64,000 nt of DNA from Harriotta raleighana. Taxonomy: Eukaryota. Shown here in pieces: positions 52,304-64,000 of this stretch (position 1 is its first letter; every line of letters starts with the position of its first letter). The notes under the pieces were generated by a model. It was not told the DNA's origin, searched no databases, and was given only the letters and a program-made list of their open reading frames with translations. The position numbers were made by a program, and so were the translations under genes. Location of the stretch: contig JBNZDD010013730.1 of the NCBI GenBank assembly GCA_050575255.1, positions 9,791,849-9,855,848 of the forward strand. The letters are read 5' to 3'.

Positions 52304-52519
52304 TCAAATCAGTCTCTCCATTGGAGGAGGCTGCACCATGTTCCACATCTCCACACGTGACCCCTCCTTCTCCTGTCGGCTGGGGCTGTAGGTCCCCTGT
52401 GTTGCCCTCTTATTCAAGGCCACAATGAAGGCTGCGAGTACTAGAAGCAGAATCAGCAACAGAGCCACGGTCACCAACCCAATGTACAGAAGAACTTCTG
52501 AGGTCCAAATATCCAGGTC
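52304..52519 (-). CDS. CRB1: Canonical CRB1 terminal exon: [71 protein letters not shown]
   Basis: Translated by hand (absent from the ORF track); ctgttttgactctgtacaacag acceptor, phase 0; [11 protein letters not shown] and [25 protein letters not shown] match human CRB1 as recalled. Confidence 0.96.
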
Positions 52520-52748: not shown

Positions 52749-52970
52749 TCAGATCAGCCGCTCCTCTGGTGGCAATTTGAGAGTACTGTTCATTTCCATC
52801 CGCGGTCCAGTGTGTTCCTGATTGCTCGGGCTGTATGTTCCTTCAGTCTGACGCTTGTCACGCAGTTTTAAAATCAGAACAAACAGAATGATAGCCAGGA
52901 CTATCACTCCTGCAATGACGCACGGGACCACAATAGCTGCTATGTTTACTTTATAAGGCGCTGGATTTGT
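52749..52970 (-). CDS. Extra CRB1-locus terminal exon, CRB2/CRB3-type TM + tail: [73 protein letters not shown]
   Basis: ttattttcacag acceptor, phase 0, intact 73-aa frame with TM helix, GTY FERM-binding motif and ERLI PDZ-binding motif. Confidence 0.9.
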
Positions 52971-53555
52971 CTGTGAAAATAATTTTAGACTTTTATTAGA
53001 AATTCTCACAAAACAGGACTAGGATCAATCTAGGCAGTCCCATTCTCACTTTTTTTCGTTAAGAATTGGAATGGTATCTAGCTCTACATCGTCCCCATTA
53101 TGAGCAAACTGCACTCACACTATTTTTTGAACCTTTATTAAAACATAAGTAGAACTTTTCTAAATTTATGTCCTTGTTTTTTTCACCTTTGTGATGTAAC
53201 TTGGCTCTCAAGTCGTCAATGTTGATTCCTGATTTGAAGTCAAGTGATCCCAGGCAGAATGGAAGTAGGATCACAATTACCCACATAATCCCCTGGTTAG
53301 GAAGTATTACAACTTCTGATTGCTACTTGTTGAGATGCCCATTACACAGGGCATCGCAGATAAATCCAGGTTTGGCCTTACATCCTACCAATTCGACTAC
53401 CTTATTTGTGCACAAGTTACTTGGCCTTGTAGATTTATCTTCGCTTGCAAAAAAAAGGTAAGTTCTAGAATAAAGCTATATTTTAAGCATGAATTATTCA
53501 TTATTATTTCATATATTTTTAATTCAAAACTTTTTTGAAATCATGGCCTTCCTAC

Positions 53556-53569
53556 ATGGGAAACATTTA
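53556..53569 (-). CDS. Candidate 14-nt exon (V)NVSH
   Basis: tctttctaccttttgtgctttcgttcag TAAATGTTTCCCAT gtagga; phase 1 to 0; donor only moderate. Confidence 0.25.
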
Positions 53570-56329
53570 CTGAACGAAAGCACAAAAGGTAGAAAGATAT
53601 TTTAAATGCAGTTAGTTCTTGCAAGGTTCTTGTGGTCGATACATTCCTGGGATAATGCATATACAGTAATTGGACTAATTTCTCAGTAGCTGTAGCACTG
53701 ATCACTGTATCAATTAATGGCATTTGAAAGATCAAATGAAGTTTTAAAGGTAAGCCTGCCTCGACATAGAGAATCAGTTTTATTGAGCCCTTCGTGTATT
53801 ACAGCATGAAAGCTGAGTCCAAAACATAGATTAGAATGCTGTTATGTCAAGTTAAATCTATCAACTTACAGATGTGGTATTATCAGCAATTGTTGATTGC
53901 GAAGGATCTGTTACATTCGACACTGCAAAGGAACCAACACTATCATAAAGTTGTTATGGAATTGTTGCAAATTTGTCATTTCAAAGTCAAGTCACAACTT
54001 TACCAGATAATCAAGAAAAATTGCAAACACCTGTCTCTTGTTATGAAGGAAGCTGTTAAGTGTCCACTGAGCACTTTTTTTTAATATCCTTTTTAAGGTC
54101 ACTTAAGGATGACCACATGACAGCAGGTAAGTTCTTTTAAGTCGGGGGAGAATTGTCAAGCCCTCTTCGTGTGATTCCAGAGTTTCAAGTACAGGAAAAT
54201 AGCTCTGATCTGTGCCACAAAGTGACTGAGGGACATCAGGTCTCCGTTTTATGCAGGATGATGAATATAGACACATGCGAGAGATGGGTGTAAGAATGTT
54301 AAACCCACACTCGAACCTTAAATCATGTAGCCAGTTCTACAACAGTCCTTAAAAACTGAAAATGTGCATTTAAATTATGCATCACTTGCATGAAATATAG
54401 CTAGAAAAATTATGGCTATTCACAAAAGGTTTCCTAACTAGACAGTGCTCTTTCAAACTAGACATTGCTCCTTTGACAAGTTACGAGCCACCCATTCTTT
54501 AGACTGCCTGCTCTCATTATTCAACAACAGGCACTACATATTGGGTACTGTTCCTGTAATGTGGTTCAGACACTAAAGATTAAGAACTATTGTTAGTGTA
54601 TTGTTTAGAGGGATTCAACAGATCGTGACAAGGGCAAGTTGTGTTTTCAGATACCCTGTATTTTAAAGAAATTGAAAAGCCCAGACCTTTCTTTTTGCAG
54701 GCCTAGTTGGGATCTCAGCCAGACGCGGGCGGGAGCTGTGACTGCACATTCCCACCAATTCACTGGTTGACCCAGTTTCTCTGGTATGGATTAATGCAAC
54801 AGGCTGATTACCATGACATTCCCCGAATCTGAGTAAATCTGGAGCCTGGCAGACTGCCCATTACAGGGTGTACTGCCATTATAGTTAAAGCTGAAAATAA
54901 AACTACCTGTAAAGCTCACTGGCTGAAAACATGGTGTCTTTTACATGTATTTATGCTTTGCAGTTTATTCTGTGAAGCTCTTTGAGATGTTTCAATGATG
55001 TGATAAGTCGCTATATCATATGCAAGGATGATTATTGTTATCAAATGTTATAACCATACATAGTATGACACTAATTTTCTAATGTAACAAATTTTCTAAG
55101 GCAGTAATTTTTAACTGACGTCTCAGATAAAAGAAAATTGTCAATCACAGATATTAATATTCTTTTGGCTGGAACCTCTCTCGGAGCTCCTTCTTCATTG
55201 TTTTCGCTTTATAATACTTACAGTTAACCTACCATCTTAGCCTGGCTGTTTATTACACTATAGTTTTCTTTGAACATTATTTCCCCATTCTTTATATTTA
55301 ATGCAGCTTGAAACTGTAAGGCTCAGGCTAGGAATGACTTCTTCTCCATTTACAGGGGTAACTGAAAGCTTGCTGCATGTAATTTGGTGGCCAAAATATG
55401 TCTTTTATGAATTAGAAAACAGTTTCTGGGACTTGTCACACCACTCACCTTCATTTTGCAAAAGATGAAGTGTTCAGACAGGCTAGGGTTATATAGTGGA
55501 GATAATGATGCTTTACTCACCATTTGTGACTAAATTACCTCTAAAATCCCATTATGTTGTTTCTCAAATAGAATCCTTTTAATTATTCTTGCTCTTTGCT
55601 TTCTCCTTCCTCAAAAGATTATGAAATGCTTATATTTTAAACTACAGTTTAATACTCCTTGTTTCAATGCTGCATTGGAGGTTACACTTTCAGTTTAGAT
55701 GAGAAGTGATGTATCTGTCTGATTGACGCCTGTTGTTGATGTACCGTATTCAGTCGTAATATCGTTATCATGTGGCAAACAGTTCAAACAAAATTTTGCT
55801 GATCTATTTGGTACGCAAACAATCACAATCTAGGTGTCAGTCTGGCTCACTTGGTAACACACTCCCCTCTGAGACAGAAAGCTGTGTTTCAAGTCCAATC
55901 AAATGCAAGGATTATTATATTGGGGAATTGAAATCACAGCTGACACTTAAGTGCAGTGCTGGGGAACAACGCATTGACTTCAGATACAACGTCTTCTCTT
56001 TCTGTTCTGGTGGACAAGAAAGATCCCATCGCACTATTCAAAAGGGAAAGGGAGGTTTTTCTTAAAATGTTTCTGATGTTTGTGAATAGGATTTTCTAAA
56101 GGAACACTACTTGTAATCCTCGCGGTGTTTGCTTTAATTTTTTGTTATTTGTAGATTAAGACACAGCAAGAAATTTCAGCACATTTCCTGATCAATATTA
56201 TTATTTGTTTTCCAAAAATGAACAGTTCGAGATGCTGGTGCCTCAGTTATAACCTAATAAACAACTGTCCGTTCACAAATGACTATCATCTGATTGTCCT
56301 GAGCTTCTGAAAACCGTCAGCAATTCACA

Positions 56330-56575
56330 TTATTACAGCACATTTCAAATTGAGTGGATGTCACAAAGCATTTCACATAACGTGCTGGTTATTGAAATCT
56401 TTGGTGGATGCTTGGGGGTTGGAAGGAGGGGACTGGGGTGGGGGTTGGAAGCTTAGGAGTCGATAGTGGCCATGACTGAAGAATGAGGTTTTATGGTGTC
56501 TTTTGAAGGTGGGGAGAGAGGGTGAGGCAGAGGGATTCCAGGATGGAGTTCCAGGAAGCAGGGAAGAGAGAAGGT
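56330..56575 (-). mobile_element. Degraded L2-type LINE 3' fragment
   Basis: ttttgaaggtggggagagagggtgaggcagagggattccaggatggagttccag resembles the other L2 copies. Confidence 0.55.
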
Positions 56576-56946
56576 GGCAGTGACTATTTCCTATCTATTA
56601 ATAGAAATACTAATCTTTTCAATAAATCATTTGTGTTCACACCCAGAACACGTTTAACTATTTAACATCAGAAGCGGGTGTCACCTTAGTCCCAACTTTA
56701 CACAGCATTTTGCTCGCACAATTTATTGCTAATCACAATGTTGCATCAATGAACCATTAGAAATTTAGATCCCACAGACTATCTATGTCATTACCCACTC
56801 TCTGTGCAAAACATGGCTTTTCTGTTTCGGTAGAAATAGTGCTAAGTTGGTTAAAAAATCAACAAAGTCCCTAAATTTAAACAAAATCTTAATGTATGTA
56901 CTTTTACCTATGTGCCATTTTTTATAGTATTCAAACTAAGGTTTAC

Positions 56947-56968
56947 CTGTAGAGTTTGAAGAGTCTGC
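56947..56968 (-). CDS. Candidate 22-nt exon in the last CRB1 intron
   Basis: tttttgttcaag GCAGACTCTTCAAACTCTACAG gtaaac; reads ADSSNST in phase 0 or (W)QTLQTLQ in phase 2. Confidence 0.35.
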
Positions 56969-58852
56969 CTTGAACAAAAATATTAAAAACGAAAGCCAAA
57001 TGAGGTTTAAAAGCAGTCTTTCCATATTAAGCATAACCATTTGAAATGCAGTCCCAGGATTTTGGTGATAGTACAGAAGAATTCAGTCATTGGAAAGACC
57101 TTCCACCACCAACAAGCTCGCAATGTAGCACAATGAATGTATCTGTACTTCAGGCTGCTGTAAAAGGCTGATTCATCTTGGTAGTTCCCACTATGCTCGA
57201 CCTCTCTTCTTTTTCTGCTCGATGATCCTTAGAGCCTTTACTTTGCCATTACTATTCCAGTGAAAAATGTTGAAACTGATCTAAAGATGCGCAGTCGGAT
57301 TAGTTTTAGCATTCGCCGGTAACCTCTGTCTGTATATTTTAACGCTAGCAATTTCTGTCGGCCGTCCTTCACATACCTGGCTCTAGTTTCAGGTTACAGC
57401 CACACCTGAACCCTGGCAGATAAAATATCCGAACCTACAGTGCAACCTATTGTTAGGTCCCCATTGCTGCCTTCAGCTGGCCTAGGAAAAATTGACCCCA
57501 AAAATCTTCAAAATTAAAAGCTTTCAGAACTCTTTCCTAGTACAATACTGACATTAATTTGCATTAAAAAAACACATCTTTGTATGCTGCAATTGAGCTA
57601 CATATCAAGATTAATCTGCACTGACCTTGAATAAAACACAAACCCACTTTACCTTATTGGTTTTCCCCCCTATTCATGAAGGAAAGAGGTTATATTAAGA
57701 TGACTTTGCATTGATCTTGTGGATTCTTTGAATCTCTAGCTCTTCTGTATCCATAAGTACATTTGAACATCTCAAAAGCATGAGCCTGAAAATATCAGGG
57801 CTGGTTATCAATTAATTTCAAGTAAATTGAATGGTTTTGAATCTGTGGTCGAGTCAAATTTGGAATGAGGCTGAAGAGGACTTGTAGAAGGTCAGGAGAT
57901 TTCAGATAACTAATGAATTGAATCCCACTATTCACTCCCAGTACTTCAGTGAATTGAATTTAAGATCCTCATGGTCTGTGTTTCATTCCAAGTTCTTGGC
58001 CCATTCTACATATGCAATCTCCTCCTGCACTAAATTCCAGCCCGTATTATTCGTTCTTTCAATACAGAAACAGATGTAGGCTATTCAGCCTCTTGAGCCT
58101 GTTCTACCATTCTATAACATGATGATCTGTATCTGCACTTCAAGTCCAATTACCCGCCCTTGCCCCGTATCCATTAATACCTTGACAATTAGGCATCTAC
58201 TCTGATTTATTTCACCTTAAGCTATCTCTGAAACTTCACCAAAGTTTCTTCCCTGGTTACATCTCTCCGTAACTTTAAAAAAATCTCTTAAACTGCCTTT
58301 GGTCAACACCTTTGGATCTCTTATTTCTCTGCTTGGTATCCACCTCTATGTTTTTAAACTTTTTTTCATGTCGAAACTGCTGTATAAATGATTTGTGATG
58401 CTGTTTTTGAGGCTGCCTTGTGCAAGACCCGCCACCTGGTGGTGCCTTATATCAATTTGTAGCAAGAACAATTGAGGTGAACATGACAAAACATCAGGCT
58501 TAGTGACAGAAGACATCTCTTTCTGTGCGTACAGATTCCTGTCAGTCACGAGACATAGGTGAAATCCCATTTGTAATACCTTGGTATTAAATCATTCTAA
58601 TCTGTTTGTTTGATTCCAAAATAATACCACAATTCTCAAAGAATTATGACCATATAATTTTATGATATTAAAGAAATTATTGAGCAAAGTCAAATGGTTA
58701 TGAAATGTAGCAGTTGGCAACTCTATTTTAATTGTAATTTTAAAACTACAATGGTGAGATACTCATCTCTTATGTCCTGTAAGTTCTACATTTGTATGTC
58801 TTTAAGTTCTAACAACTTGGTTCCTTCTTACTGCTAGGCAAACAGAGGTGGG

Positions 58853-62225: not shown

Positions 62226-62839
62226 GAGGATACAAAGAATGTGAACCCCTGCATCACATCTCTCCATGAGACTTTGGGTTTTTTGAATGTACTCTAATTT
62301 CCTGCCCTTATTGCCTTTTCTCCTGTGTTTAATACTTAGGGGTTTCTTTTGGATTAAATGAGTAAACATTCTTAATGTAACTGTTCAGATATTTAGTATC
62401 GGTGAAATGAAGTGAAATAGAAGTGAAATAGTAGTCTTTTTTTTCCCCTTAACTATTGCTAAGCGTTGTATAGACATCAAGGGTCTATCACCAGGGTACT
62501 TTATTGAAAAAAATCAATGCTCACTCTGTGAAAATAAATTGGGCTGTATATTAAAAGTCATCAGGAATATTCTAGAAACAAACTGAGCTATTCAGCTGTG
62601 CTCATTGTATGTTTAAATGTGCAGTAATATTGTAACAAGATCCTTAACATTTTAACCACATTTTTAAGTTGAAAGAAGTTCTAGGGGATTATTATCGACT
62701 TTGGCAGTAAATTAACTTGTTGGTGTTTGCTTATCCAGGCATTGTAAACTCACAGCACAAAATTCACAGCGGATGCTCTAGAGCATATCTTACAAAAGCT
62801 GCTGTCTTTCAGTATTTTTCAAAAATTCCATACATTTAC

Positions 62840-62898
62840 CAACGAGCAGAAAACAGGCCCAGAGTAATTAAAACTGCTAAGGAAACAGGGAAACTCAT
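62840..62898 (-). CDS. Candidate signal-peptide exon inside the last CRB1 intron: MSFPVSLAVLITLGLFSAR(W)
   Basis: accATG context, hydrophobic core, TTG|gtaaat donor (phase 2); no transcript evidence. Confidence 0.4.
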
Positions 62899-63305
62899 GG
62901 TTAAATTATTGATCTCCCCATTGCTTGTGCACATTGTTCTGGTAAAACCAAACACTGTAAAGTGCTACATTTTATTTTATGCAGATCATAGCATTTAACC
63001 CTTTGAAGTCTGCAGCTAGAAGCCAAACAATTGCTGCCTTGGTTCATTCTTAAAATACCATGGGATAAGTAGCATTCTAGCTCCCTGTCAATTCCTTGAA
63101 TTGAACTGTACCTTGTAATATTTAGTTTTAAACGTTTACAAATAAACTAATTTCCCTCAGCCATTCCATGTTTAAAGGGTTGTACATAAAAGTCGCTAGT
63201 GCTTCCAAAGTTAAATATGTTGTACTTGGATGAGTGAATTCCCATGAACTTTAAAGGCATAATGATAGTTGTTCTATAGTTGATAGACACACTGATTTGT
63301 ACATT

Positions 63306-63311
63306 TTTATT
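63306..63311 (-). promoter_or_regulatory. Intronic polyadenylation signal for the read-through CRB1 isoform
   Basis: AATAAA on - strand (tttatt on +) 20 nt past the stop, followed by a GTGTGTCT element. Confidence 0.6.
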
Positions 63312-63331
63312 GAAATGATTATGCCAGAAGT

Positions 63332-63442
63332 TCAGGCCCACTCAACTGCTGGCTCATCATCCATTCGAAGTATGAGAAAGGAGAGAAGCTGAAAAAGATT
63401 TTGCCAAAGTAGCAAAGAGATGAAAAAGAAGAGATCGCTTAC
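63332..63442 (-). CDS. CRB1: CRB1 intron read-through C-terminus (exon 11b / CRB1-B type): [36 protein letters not shown]
   Basis: Open frame continuing through the donor; close to the human alternative end [36 protein letters not shown] as recalled; AATAAA 20 nt after the stop. Confidence 0.88.
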
Positions 63443-63569
63443 ATCCATTTCGCATCGGTCACCAACAAAGCTCATGTCGCAGATGCACTGGAACCTGCCG
63501 GGCAGGTTCTGACACAGGCCCCCATTCAGACAAGGGTCCGATTCACATTCATCAGCGTCCATCTCACAC
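63443..63569 (-). CDS. CRB1: CRB1 last EGF-like exon (exon 11 equivalent): [42 protein letters not shown]
   Basis: cggcag acceptor, GAT|gtaagc donor, 127 nt, phase 2 to 0; EGF cysteine spacing. Confidence 0.96.
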
Positions 63570-64000
63570 CTGCCGGGCGAACAGTCACAGACTGATTTGA
63601 AACCAAAATACTTCAGTGGTAAACTTTACTGATATACAATTCTTATTTCAATGAAGGAATGTATCATTTGCCACAGCAGTAGAGTTTTTACCGAATTGTT
63701 GTCATCATCATAGTAGCTAAAGTTAAAGTAAACGCCAAAGCACGCCAGTAGCAATGCAGGAGCCTTTAAACGTGAATTGAATTTTCCCCAAATCTGCTAA
63801 ATGAATTCCTAAAACATAAACTTAGTTAAAATGATTATACTGATAAATGTCTGTATCAGCCTGACTCAGTCAGTAGCCTCTCAGTCAGAGGGCTGTAGAT
63901 TCAAGCCTCAACTTGAAAGGCGCTCTACAAGTGTAATTTTGTTGCTGATGTAGTTGTTGGGAGTAGCTCATATTCTAAACTGACACTCCAGCGGAGATCT

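What the first reader, a model, noticed from the sequence alone, without database searches (positions are those of the whole stretch)
62840..62898. Possible nested CRB3-like mini-Crumbs: signal-peptide exon inside the last CRB1 intron
Seen: accATG AGT TTC CCT... encodes MSFPVSLAVLITLGLFSAR(W) and ends at a TTG|gtaaat donor, about 400 nt downstream of the read-through isoform's AATAAA. An in-frame ATG lies 12 codons further upstream. From recall the human CRB3 signal peptide is MANPGLGLLLALGLPFLLARW, sharing MxxP, LxxLGL and ARW. Splicing to the 22-nt candidate (56947-56968, phase 2 to 0) and then to the CRB3-like TM exon gives a 100-aa type I membrane protein with CRB3 architecture. Inference: a short isoform from an internal promoter. 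That would offer an origin for CRB3 as such an isoform whose host lost its EGF/LamG exons. The exact exon chain is uncertain, because short exon candidates arise easily by chance.
Basis: partly seen in the sequence, partly recalled or inferred. Interest (0 to 1): 0.72.

Follow-up and report, generated by a model that had tools for sequence, protein, structure and literature searches.

The report
Mini-Crumbs nested inside chimaera CRB1
A short CRB3-like polarity protein is encoded inside the last intron of this cartilaginous fish's CRB1 gene, from exons other than the one first proposed, and it likely preserves the layout from which the separate CRB3 gene arose.

Summary
The proposed exon (62840-62898) is in the sequence but is probably chance. 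Six unrelated look-alikes occur in the window, it resembles no shark signal peptide, and a relative's contig runs unspliced across its donor.

The nested mini-Crumbs is real, with other exons: signal exon 57025-56947, a 53-nt exon 53922-53870 and ERLI tail exon 52970-52749 (117 aa). Contigs of a related species join these exons.

The unit sits in CRB1 in shark, ray and teleost gene models. Rays also have a stand-alone CRB3 on another chromosome. CRB2 carries the same two tandem tail exons. This favours CRB3 as a duplicate of the nested unit whose host lost its EGF/LamG exons (about 0.7, inferred).

Databases already hold the model ('crumbs homolog 3-like', 'crb3b'). Ten literature searches found no account of the nesting. 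This scan reported it before in a ray (e1-7942591).

The parts
62840..62898 (-).
   Evidence: Present as described; chance-level pattern; X2 contig record 7 runs unspliced 62795-63570, 45 letters past the donor
56947..57025 (-). Coding part of the true signal-peptide exon of the mini-Crumbs (79 nt, phase-1 donor CAG|GTAAAC; a second in-frame ATG at 57034)
   Evidence: tblastn match to the Carcharodon CRB3-like N-terminus, 52% over 21 aa, E 0.26; shuffle test; X1 contig continues from 53922 into 56947-56979, 26 of 30 loose letters matching
53870..53922 (-). 53-nt mini-ectodomain exon (phase 1 to 0), Ser/Thr-rich with two N-glycosylation sequons
   Evidence: Matches C. milii and shark CRB3-like proteins; AG/GT ends; joint 52970-53870 in X1 and X2; sequons
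52749..52970 (-). Tail exon A: transmembrane helix, GTY FERM-binding motif, EERLI end (CRB2/CRB3 type)
   Evidence: Translation; 96% to C. milii 'crumbs homolog 3'; aligns with the solved Crumbs tail 4WSI, E 4e-11
52304..52519 (-). Tail exon B: canonical CRB1 transmembrane and MERLI tail; also lies inside the 3' UTR of the mini-Crumbs transcript
   Evidence: Translation; hits named CRB1; X1 and X2 contigs run unspliced from 52970 through it; an X3 contig starts exactly at 52519
63443..63569 (-). Last EGF exon of CRB1 (phase-0 donor)
   Evidence: Translation; upstream CRB1 exons in L013/L014 match ray CRB1; 4088-nt X3 contig holds it near its end
63332..63442 (-). Read-through extension: CRB1-B-type alternative C-terminus, AATAAA at 63311
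   Evidence: Translation ends like the mouse CRB1-B C-terminal peptide quoted in PMC7335077
2300..2401 (+). DENN-domain exon of the tail-to-tail neighbour (DENND1B by recalled synteny); context, not part of the unit
   Evidence: Pfam DENN hit here and a 91% identical paralogous exon about 92 kb from the CRB2 tails on C13702

Best explanation
The last intron of this fish's CRB1 gene encodes a 117-residue CRB3-like protein from exons 57025-56947, 53922-53870 and 52970-52749, which contigs of a related species join in that order, while the proposed 62840-62898 exon is likely chance sequence and a dedicated internal promoter is inferred. Mechanism: transcription likely starts inside the intron; the signal exon splices (phase 1) to a short glycosylatable ectodomain exon and (phase 0) to tail exon A; the transcript runs on unspliced through CRB1's own tail exon B and shares its 3' UTR. 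Long CRB1 skips the unit and splices from the last EGF exon to tail B, or reads through to the CRB1-B end. The product is predicted to be a type I apical membrane protein that binds FERM proteins (GTY motif) and Pals1/Par6 PDZ domains (ERLI), as CRB3A does (established knowledge of the family, untested here). Origin (inferred, about 0.7): the ancestral vertebrate Crumbs gene had tandem tails A and B; the CRB1/CRB3 ancestor carried the mini unit; after duplication one copy kept everything (fish CRB1) and the other kept only the mini unit (CRB3).
For: Joint 52970-53870 with GT-AG ends in 2 of 4 runs laid (X1, X2). Frame closes at 117 aa, against 118 aa for Mustelus, Carcharodon, Narcine and Mobula RefSeq models. 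Nesting elsewhere: Mobula hypostoma CRB1 XP_062919931.1 and CRB3-like XP_062919932/3.1 are consecutive on one chromosome; Zoarces VZT92_022253/022254 likewise; models of catshark (P0012), Mobula birostris (P0140), gar (P0155) and teleosts (P0018, P0022, P0026, P0027, P0025) fuse the unit to CRB1 exons. Stand-alone 104-aa CRB3 on a different chromosome from CRB1 in 4 of 4 ray species where both were returned. CRB2 has tail A then tail B in G000, in P0028 and in a sparrow model P0120. All B tails form one group, 100/99; nested tail with CRB1 tail B is rejected, p-AU 0.001. One-Ala isoform pairs at the signal junction in both nested ray (P0007/P0015) and stand-alone gecko CRB3 (P0017/P0010) fit a shared phase-1 intron (inference). 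CRB3 lies by DENND1C in human and sturgeon (passages of PMC3299635, PMC11395957), as CRB1 and CRB2 lie by DENN genes in G000.
Against: RNA comes from a related species, as assembled contigs whose RNA status is a guess, and the joined runs X1 and X2 are one study. The 53922-56947 junction rests on one contig's loose end. No transcription start was seen; a non-coding upstream exon is possible. In one search only 15 of 586 joints and 24 of 3253 loose ends were shown, so rare use of the 62840 donor could be hidden. Nested plus stand-alone CRB3 group at only 91/78 and 78; nested with CRB2 tail A is not rejected (p-AU 0.117); 65-67 columns only. Hypanus CRB1 and CRB3-like share a chromosome but their accessions are not consecutive. 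No stand-alone CRB3 was found in G000, though a third DENND1-like exon lies on a 38-kb contig, so the assembly may be broken there. No jawless-fish sequence was seen.
Confidence: 0.88

Rival explanations
1. The 62840-62898 exon is a real minor alternative first exon, spliced not to the 22-nt piece but to an upstream phase-2 acceptor at 53939, giving an open 116-aa signal-bearing protein.
For: That chain has no stop; the older C. milii model XP_007893872.1 appears to use the same acceptor from a different 5' exon near 54879-54823; good Kozak context and donor.
Against: No loose end or joint at 53939 in 4 runs, with all 3 joints and 13 loose ends shown; X2 and X3 contigs run unspliced across it; X2 contig bridges the 62840 donor; no match to nested shark/ray N-termini; pattern frequency about 1 per 20 kb.
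Confidence: 0.05
2. The nested unit is a copy of an already separate CRB3 gene that moved into the CRB1 intron in a gnathostome ancestor.
For: The nested tail groups with stand-alone CRB3 tails, which fits either direction.
Against: CRB2 has a tail A exon in the same place and phase, just before tail B, so tail A beside CRB1's tail B looks ancestral in place; the copy keeps its introns, strand and a phase-0 acceptor that CRB1 models of ray, bichir and teleosts use directly.
Confidence: 0.1
3. Tail A is ancestral in all three loci, but the signal and mini-ectodomain exons arose twice, once in CRB1 and once at the CRB3 locus.
For: The nested signal peptide is not clearly similar to those of stand-alone CRB3 (best 49/1000 shuffles for a ray, 336-608 for lizards); tree support for nested plus stand-alone is modest; no mini exons found in the G000 CRB2 last intron (weak search, 1.2-kb gap).
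Against: Same length, same layout and, by the one-Ala isoform pairs, the same phase-1 junction; shared IAAIV-PC motif at the start of the helix; signal peptides drift fast.
Confidence: 0.15

Closest known systems
Vertebrate CRB3 (ERLI-ending CRB3A form); in rays the stand-alone 104-aa 'crumbs homolog 3a'
   Same: Signal peptide, tiny Ser/Thr-rich ectodomain without EGF/LamG, one helix, GTY motif, EERLI end; 63-66% identity of the tail exon to caecilian and tegu CRB3
   Different: Lies inside CRB1 and shares its 3' UTR; rays hold both this and a separate CRB3, so it is likely a paralogue, not the orthologue, of human CRB3
NCBI 'protein crumbs homolog 3(-like)' of C. milii, sharks and rays; UniRef 'Crumbs homolog 3b' of teleosts
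   Same: The same unit: 96% to XP_007893872.1 over the tail exon; teleost nested type named 3b in two UniRef entries
   Different: The C. milii model has another 5' exon with no signal peptide, unsupported in the runs laid; teleost forms end ERLV/ERLL with a changed juxtamembrane motif; the names do not record the nesting
CRB1-B, internal-promoter isoform of CRB1 (Ray et al. 2020, PMC7335077, passages read)
   Same: Internal promoter with its own signal-peptide exon inside CRB1 and an alternative 3' end; its C-terminus is present here at 63442-63332
   Different: CRB1-B keeps most EGF/LamG exons and lacks the FERM/PDZ motifs; the mini unit drops the whole ectodomain and keeps both motifs

Membership tests
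CRB3-type short Crumbs (works like) | N-terminal signal peptide and very short ectodomain without EGF or laminin G domains | tested here: met
   26-residue exon with hydropathy 2.81, homologous to shark N-termini; 17-residue second exon. SignalP itself not available.
CRB3-type short Crumbs (works like) | Single helix plus short tail with GTY FERM motif and C-terminal ERLI | tested here: met
   (alignment to 4WSI/4YL8 Crumbs tail, E 4e-11)
CRB3-type short Crumbs (works like) | Spliced transcript exists | tested here: met
   In a related species only: joint 52970-53870 in X1 and X2, loose end to 56947 in X1
CRB3-type short Crumbs (works like) | Apical localisation in epithelia; binding to Pals1/Par6 and FERM proteins | not testable with these tools
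   Needs tissue data and binding assays
Orthologue of human CRB3 | Stand-alone locus beside DENND1C | tested here: not met
   Lies inside CRB1; rays hold a separate CRB3 on another chromosome; CRB3-DENND1C adjacency from passages of PMC3299635 and PMC11395957
Orthologue of human CRB3 | Groups with tetrapod CRB3 to the exclusion of other short forms | tested here: inconclusive
   Nested, ray stand-alone and tetrapod CRB3 unresolved in a 65-column tree
Isoform of CRB1 | Same strand and overlapping mature transcript | tested here: met
   X1 and X2 contigs run from tail A through tail B into the shared 3' region
Isoform of CRB1 | Shares a coding exon with long CRB1 (EGF exon spliced to tail A) | tested here: inconclusive
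   Seen in gene models of Hemitrygon, Polypterus, Erpetoichthys, Scomber and Anarrhichthys, not in the 4 runs
Isoform of CRB1 | Own internal promoter | not testable with these tools
   Contigs cannot show starts; one contig carries about 440 letters 5' of the 56947 donor

The most novel reading that the evidence does not exclude
The ancestral jawed-vertebrate Crumbs gene was a switchable locus with two tandem tails and an internal mini-Crumbs; CRB1, CRB2 and CRB3 are different deletions of it. Fish 'crb3b' is then the CRB1-nested unit and an ancient paralogue of crb3a rather than a teleost duplicate, fish CRB1 can swap between three C-termini, and CRB2 of chimaera and birds still holds an overlooked CRB1-type tail exon.
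Probability: 0.6. Interest if true: 0.62.

Novelty: new variant of a known kind. Interest (0 to 1): 0.48.

Why it matters
It gives a concrete route from a giant Crumbs to CRB3: keep an internal-promoter unit, lose the host's ectodomain exons. PMC5676222 (passages) ascribes crb3a/crb3b to a duplication 'in the zebrafish genome'; if crb3b is the CRB1-nested unit the split is at least as old as jawed vertebrates, and deletions or probes at the 3' end of fish crb1 would hit two products with different tissue patterns. It also corrects the 5' end of the public chimaera model. The surprise is moderate: the protein models are already in databases, and nested internal-promoter units are a known kind.

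Tried and rejected
Direct 62840 > 52970 splice: out of frame. C. milii model's 5' exon near 54879-54812: an X2 contig passes it unspliced. Mini exons in the G000 CRB2 last intron: no credible tblastn hit with 9 short proteins, weak test with a 1.2-kb N gap. Stand-alone CRB3 in G000: none in three searches (4 of 6, 4 of 7, 5 of 8 candidates matched; the fifth, E 0.3, was not followed); not evidence of loss. Naming the neighbour through its C-terminal exon: no paralogue in G000, no Atlas hit; dDENN search did not hit the window. No listed run was on record as an RNA holder. X9 (raw single-cell reads, another organism) had under 0.5x cover on the exons; X5 did not cover tail A. CpG scan around 57.2-57.6 kb: o/e 0.57, not distinct from other bins. 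Conservation of the 62898 ATG in relatives could not be read: the difference tables were cut and both lay calls are spent. Look-ups of earlier findings by place and by sequence were empty. Literature: ten searches showed no paper on the nesting; most hits were seen as listings only, Omori and Malicki 2006 and Hsu et al. 2006 were not read and may give map positions, and no supplements were read.

Full report
Setting. The gene is on the minus strand. The tail exon at 52970-52749 is 96% identical to Callorhinchus milii 'protein crumbs homolog 3' (8 hits of 9 candidates), so the window is likely from a chimaera. The host is CRB1: exons upstream in L013/L014 match ray CRB1 at 57-71%, the exon at 52519-52304 finds proteins named CRB1 (254 hits, 120 listed), and a DENN-domain gene faces it tail to tail. 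The last EGF exon (63569-63443) either splices in phase 0 or reads through to a stop at 63332. That read-through ends like the mouse CRB1-B peptide quoted in PMC7335077 (passages).

The observation. It is not beyond chance: the same filters pick 6 unrelated start sites in the two strands of the window. Its peptide matched 0 of 5 nested shark/ray N-termini and 1 of 13 short Crumbs N-termini at the 5% shuffle level. In one search a 965-nt contig of run X2 covers 62795-63570 without a break, 45 letters past the donor; it may be 3' UTR, pre-mRNA or DNA, and other intronic contigs of X2 have similar depth. The joint and loose-end tables of that call were swamped by repeats (15 of 586 and 24 of 3253 rows shown), so it does not exclude rare use. 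Conservation of the ATG could not be read.

The real unit. Shark and ray RefSeq 'CRB3-like' proteins (118 aa) pointed to two other exons: 57025-56947, 79 coding nt with a phase-1 donor, and 53922-53870, 53 nt, phase 1 to 0. With tail A they give 117 aa. X1 and X2 join 52970 to 53870 across a GT-AG intron of 899 nt; X3 and X5 do not cover that junction. X1 and X2 then run unspliced through tail B, so CRB1's last coding exon lies in the mini transcript's 3' UTR. An X3 contig begins exactly at 52519, and a 4088-nt X3 contig leaves the EGF exon one base past the donor, which fits tail B (first base G) and not tail A (first base A) (inference). These runs are one study of a related species, assembled contigs, RNA by guess. 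The 5' end is open: X1 carries about 440 letters 5' of the 56947 donor, X2 cover fades near 57300, and an AG at 57281 could be an acceptor for a non-coding first exon.

Spread. Mobula hypostoma CRB1 and CRB3-like have consecutive accessions on one chromosome; Hypanus shares the chromosome without consecutive numbers; Zoarces has consecutive locus tags. Models of catshark, Mobula birostris, gar, conger, tarpon, plaice and toothfish fuse the unit to CRB1 exons in the same order. CRB1 models of Hemitrygon, Polypterus, Erpetoichthys, two Scomber species and Anarrhichthys splice the EGF exon straight to tail A; these are predictions. The percomorph form ends ERLV and two UniRef entries call it 'Crumbs homolog 3b'; both entries are chimeric with tail B, and zebrafish crb3b itself was not seen. 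Four ray species also have a 104-aa CRB3 on a chromosome other than CRB1's; in the gecko Paroedura CRB1 and CRB3 are on different chromosomes. Loss of the nested unit in tetrapods is recalled, not tested: (95 hits of 8000 candidates scored) returned no mammalian CRB3 either, so it is too insensitive.

Origin. The second Crumbs locus of G000 (C13702, CRB2-like, also facing a DENN gene) has tail A followed about 1.1 kb later by an intact tail B, as do model P0028 and a sparrow model P0120. In a 36-row tree all B tails group at 100/99; nested, ray stand-alone and tetrapod CRB3 tails group apart from CRB2 tail A at 91/78 (rows were chosen by hand, no jawless or invertebrate rows, 65 columns). With the 7 teleost nested rows left out, nested plus CRB1 tail B is rejected (p-AU 0.001), nested plus CRB2 tail A is not (0.117). 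So the A-then-B pair predates the CRB1/CRB2 split (well supported), and tail A in CRB1 is likely ancestral in place. Human and sturgeon CRB3 sit by DENND1C (passages), and G000 has a third DENND1-like exon on a 38-kb contig. Isoform pairs that differ by one Ala right after the signal peptide occur in both nested ray and stand-alone gecko CRB3, which fits a shared phase-1 intron. The simplest reading is that CRB3 is a duplicate of the CRB1-type locus that kept only the mini unit (about 0.7). That the duplication was a whole-genome one is established knowledge of such paralogous blocks, recalled and not tested here.

What is known. The protein models are public. Passages of PMC5676222 treat crb3a/crb3b as a zebrafish duplication, with crb3b strong in the digestive system; passages of two reviews (PMC11129452, PMC7456964) list the family and did not mention nesting. 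Ten searches found no paper on it; the library lacks most subscription papers, the two 2006 zebrafish papers were not read, and no supplements were opened.

Verdict. The named feature is probably not an exon; the system it was meant to explain is real, conserved across cartilaginous and ray-finned fishes in gene models, already annotated as a protein, and of moderate evolutionary interest.

Noticed in passing
G000:C13702:6494988-6495212 (L012) and models P0028, P0120: The CRB2 locus keeps an intact CRB1-type tail exon behind its normal tail, in this genome and in a bird model. Long contigs of X1 and X3 (7.7 and 8.1 kb) hold it about 5.6-6.0 kb in, which would fit a place in the 3' UTR; whether it is ever coding is unknown.
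   Followed up: partly
window 63442-63332: The CRB1-B-type alternative C-terminus is conserved in this chimaera, and in ray and teleost models P0140, P0025, P0260.
   Followed up: partly
proteins P0172, P0186, P0190 and relatives: Percomorph nested tails end ERLV and have changed the GTY motif (e.g. GGF), so they may have lost FERM binding while keeping a PDZ ligand.
   Followed up: no
window 57026-57480: Eight upstream ATGs lie in the 455 nt before the start codon, one in frame at 57034; an AG at 57281 could be an acceptor.
   Followed up: no
window 53939 and 54879-54812: Alternative phase-2 acceptor and 5' exon apparently used by the C. milii model XP_007893872.1, which has no signal peptide; unsupported in the runs laid.
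   Followed up: partly
G000:C12906:1163-1273 (L065): A third DENND1-like exon on a 38-kb contig, near its end; likely the fragmented DENND1C region where a stand-alone CRB3 would be expected.
   Followed up: partly
G000:C13716:8886776 and 8893894 (L032, L033): Two DENN exon hits with identical scores 7 kb apart: a recent tandem duplication or an assembly artefact.
   Followed up: no
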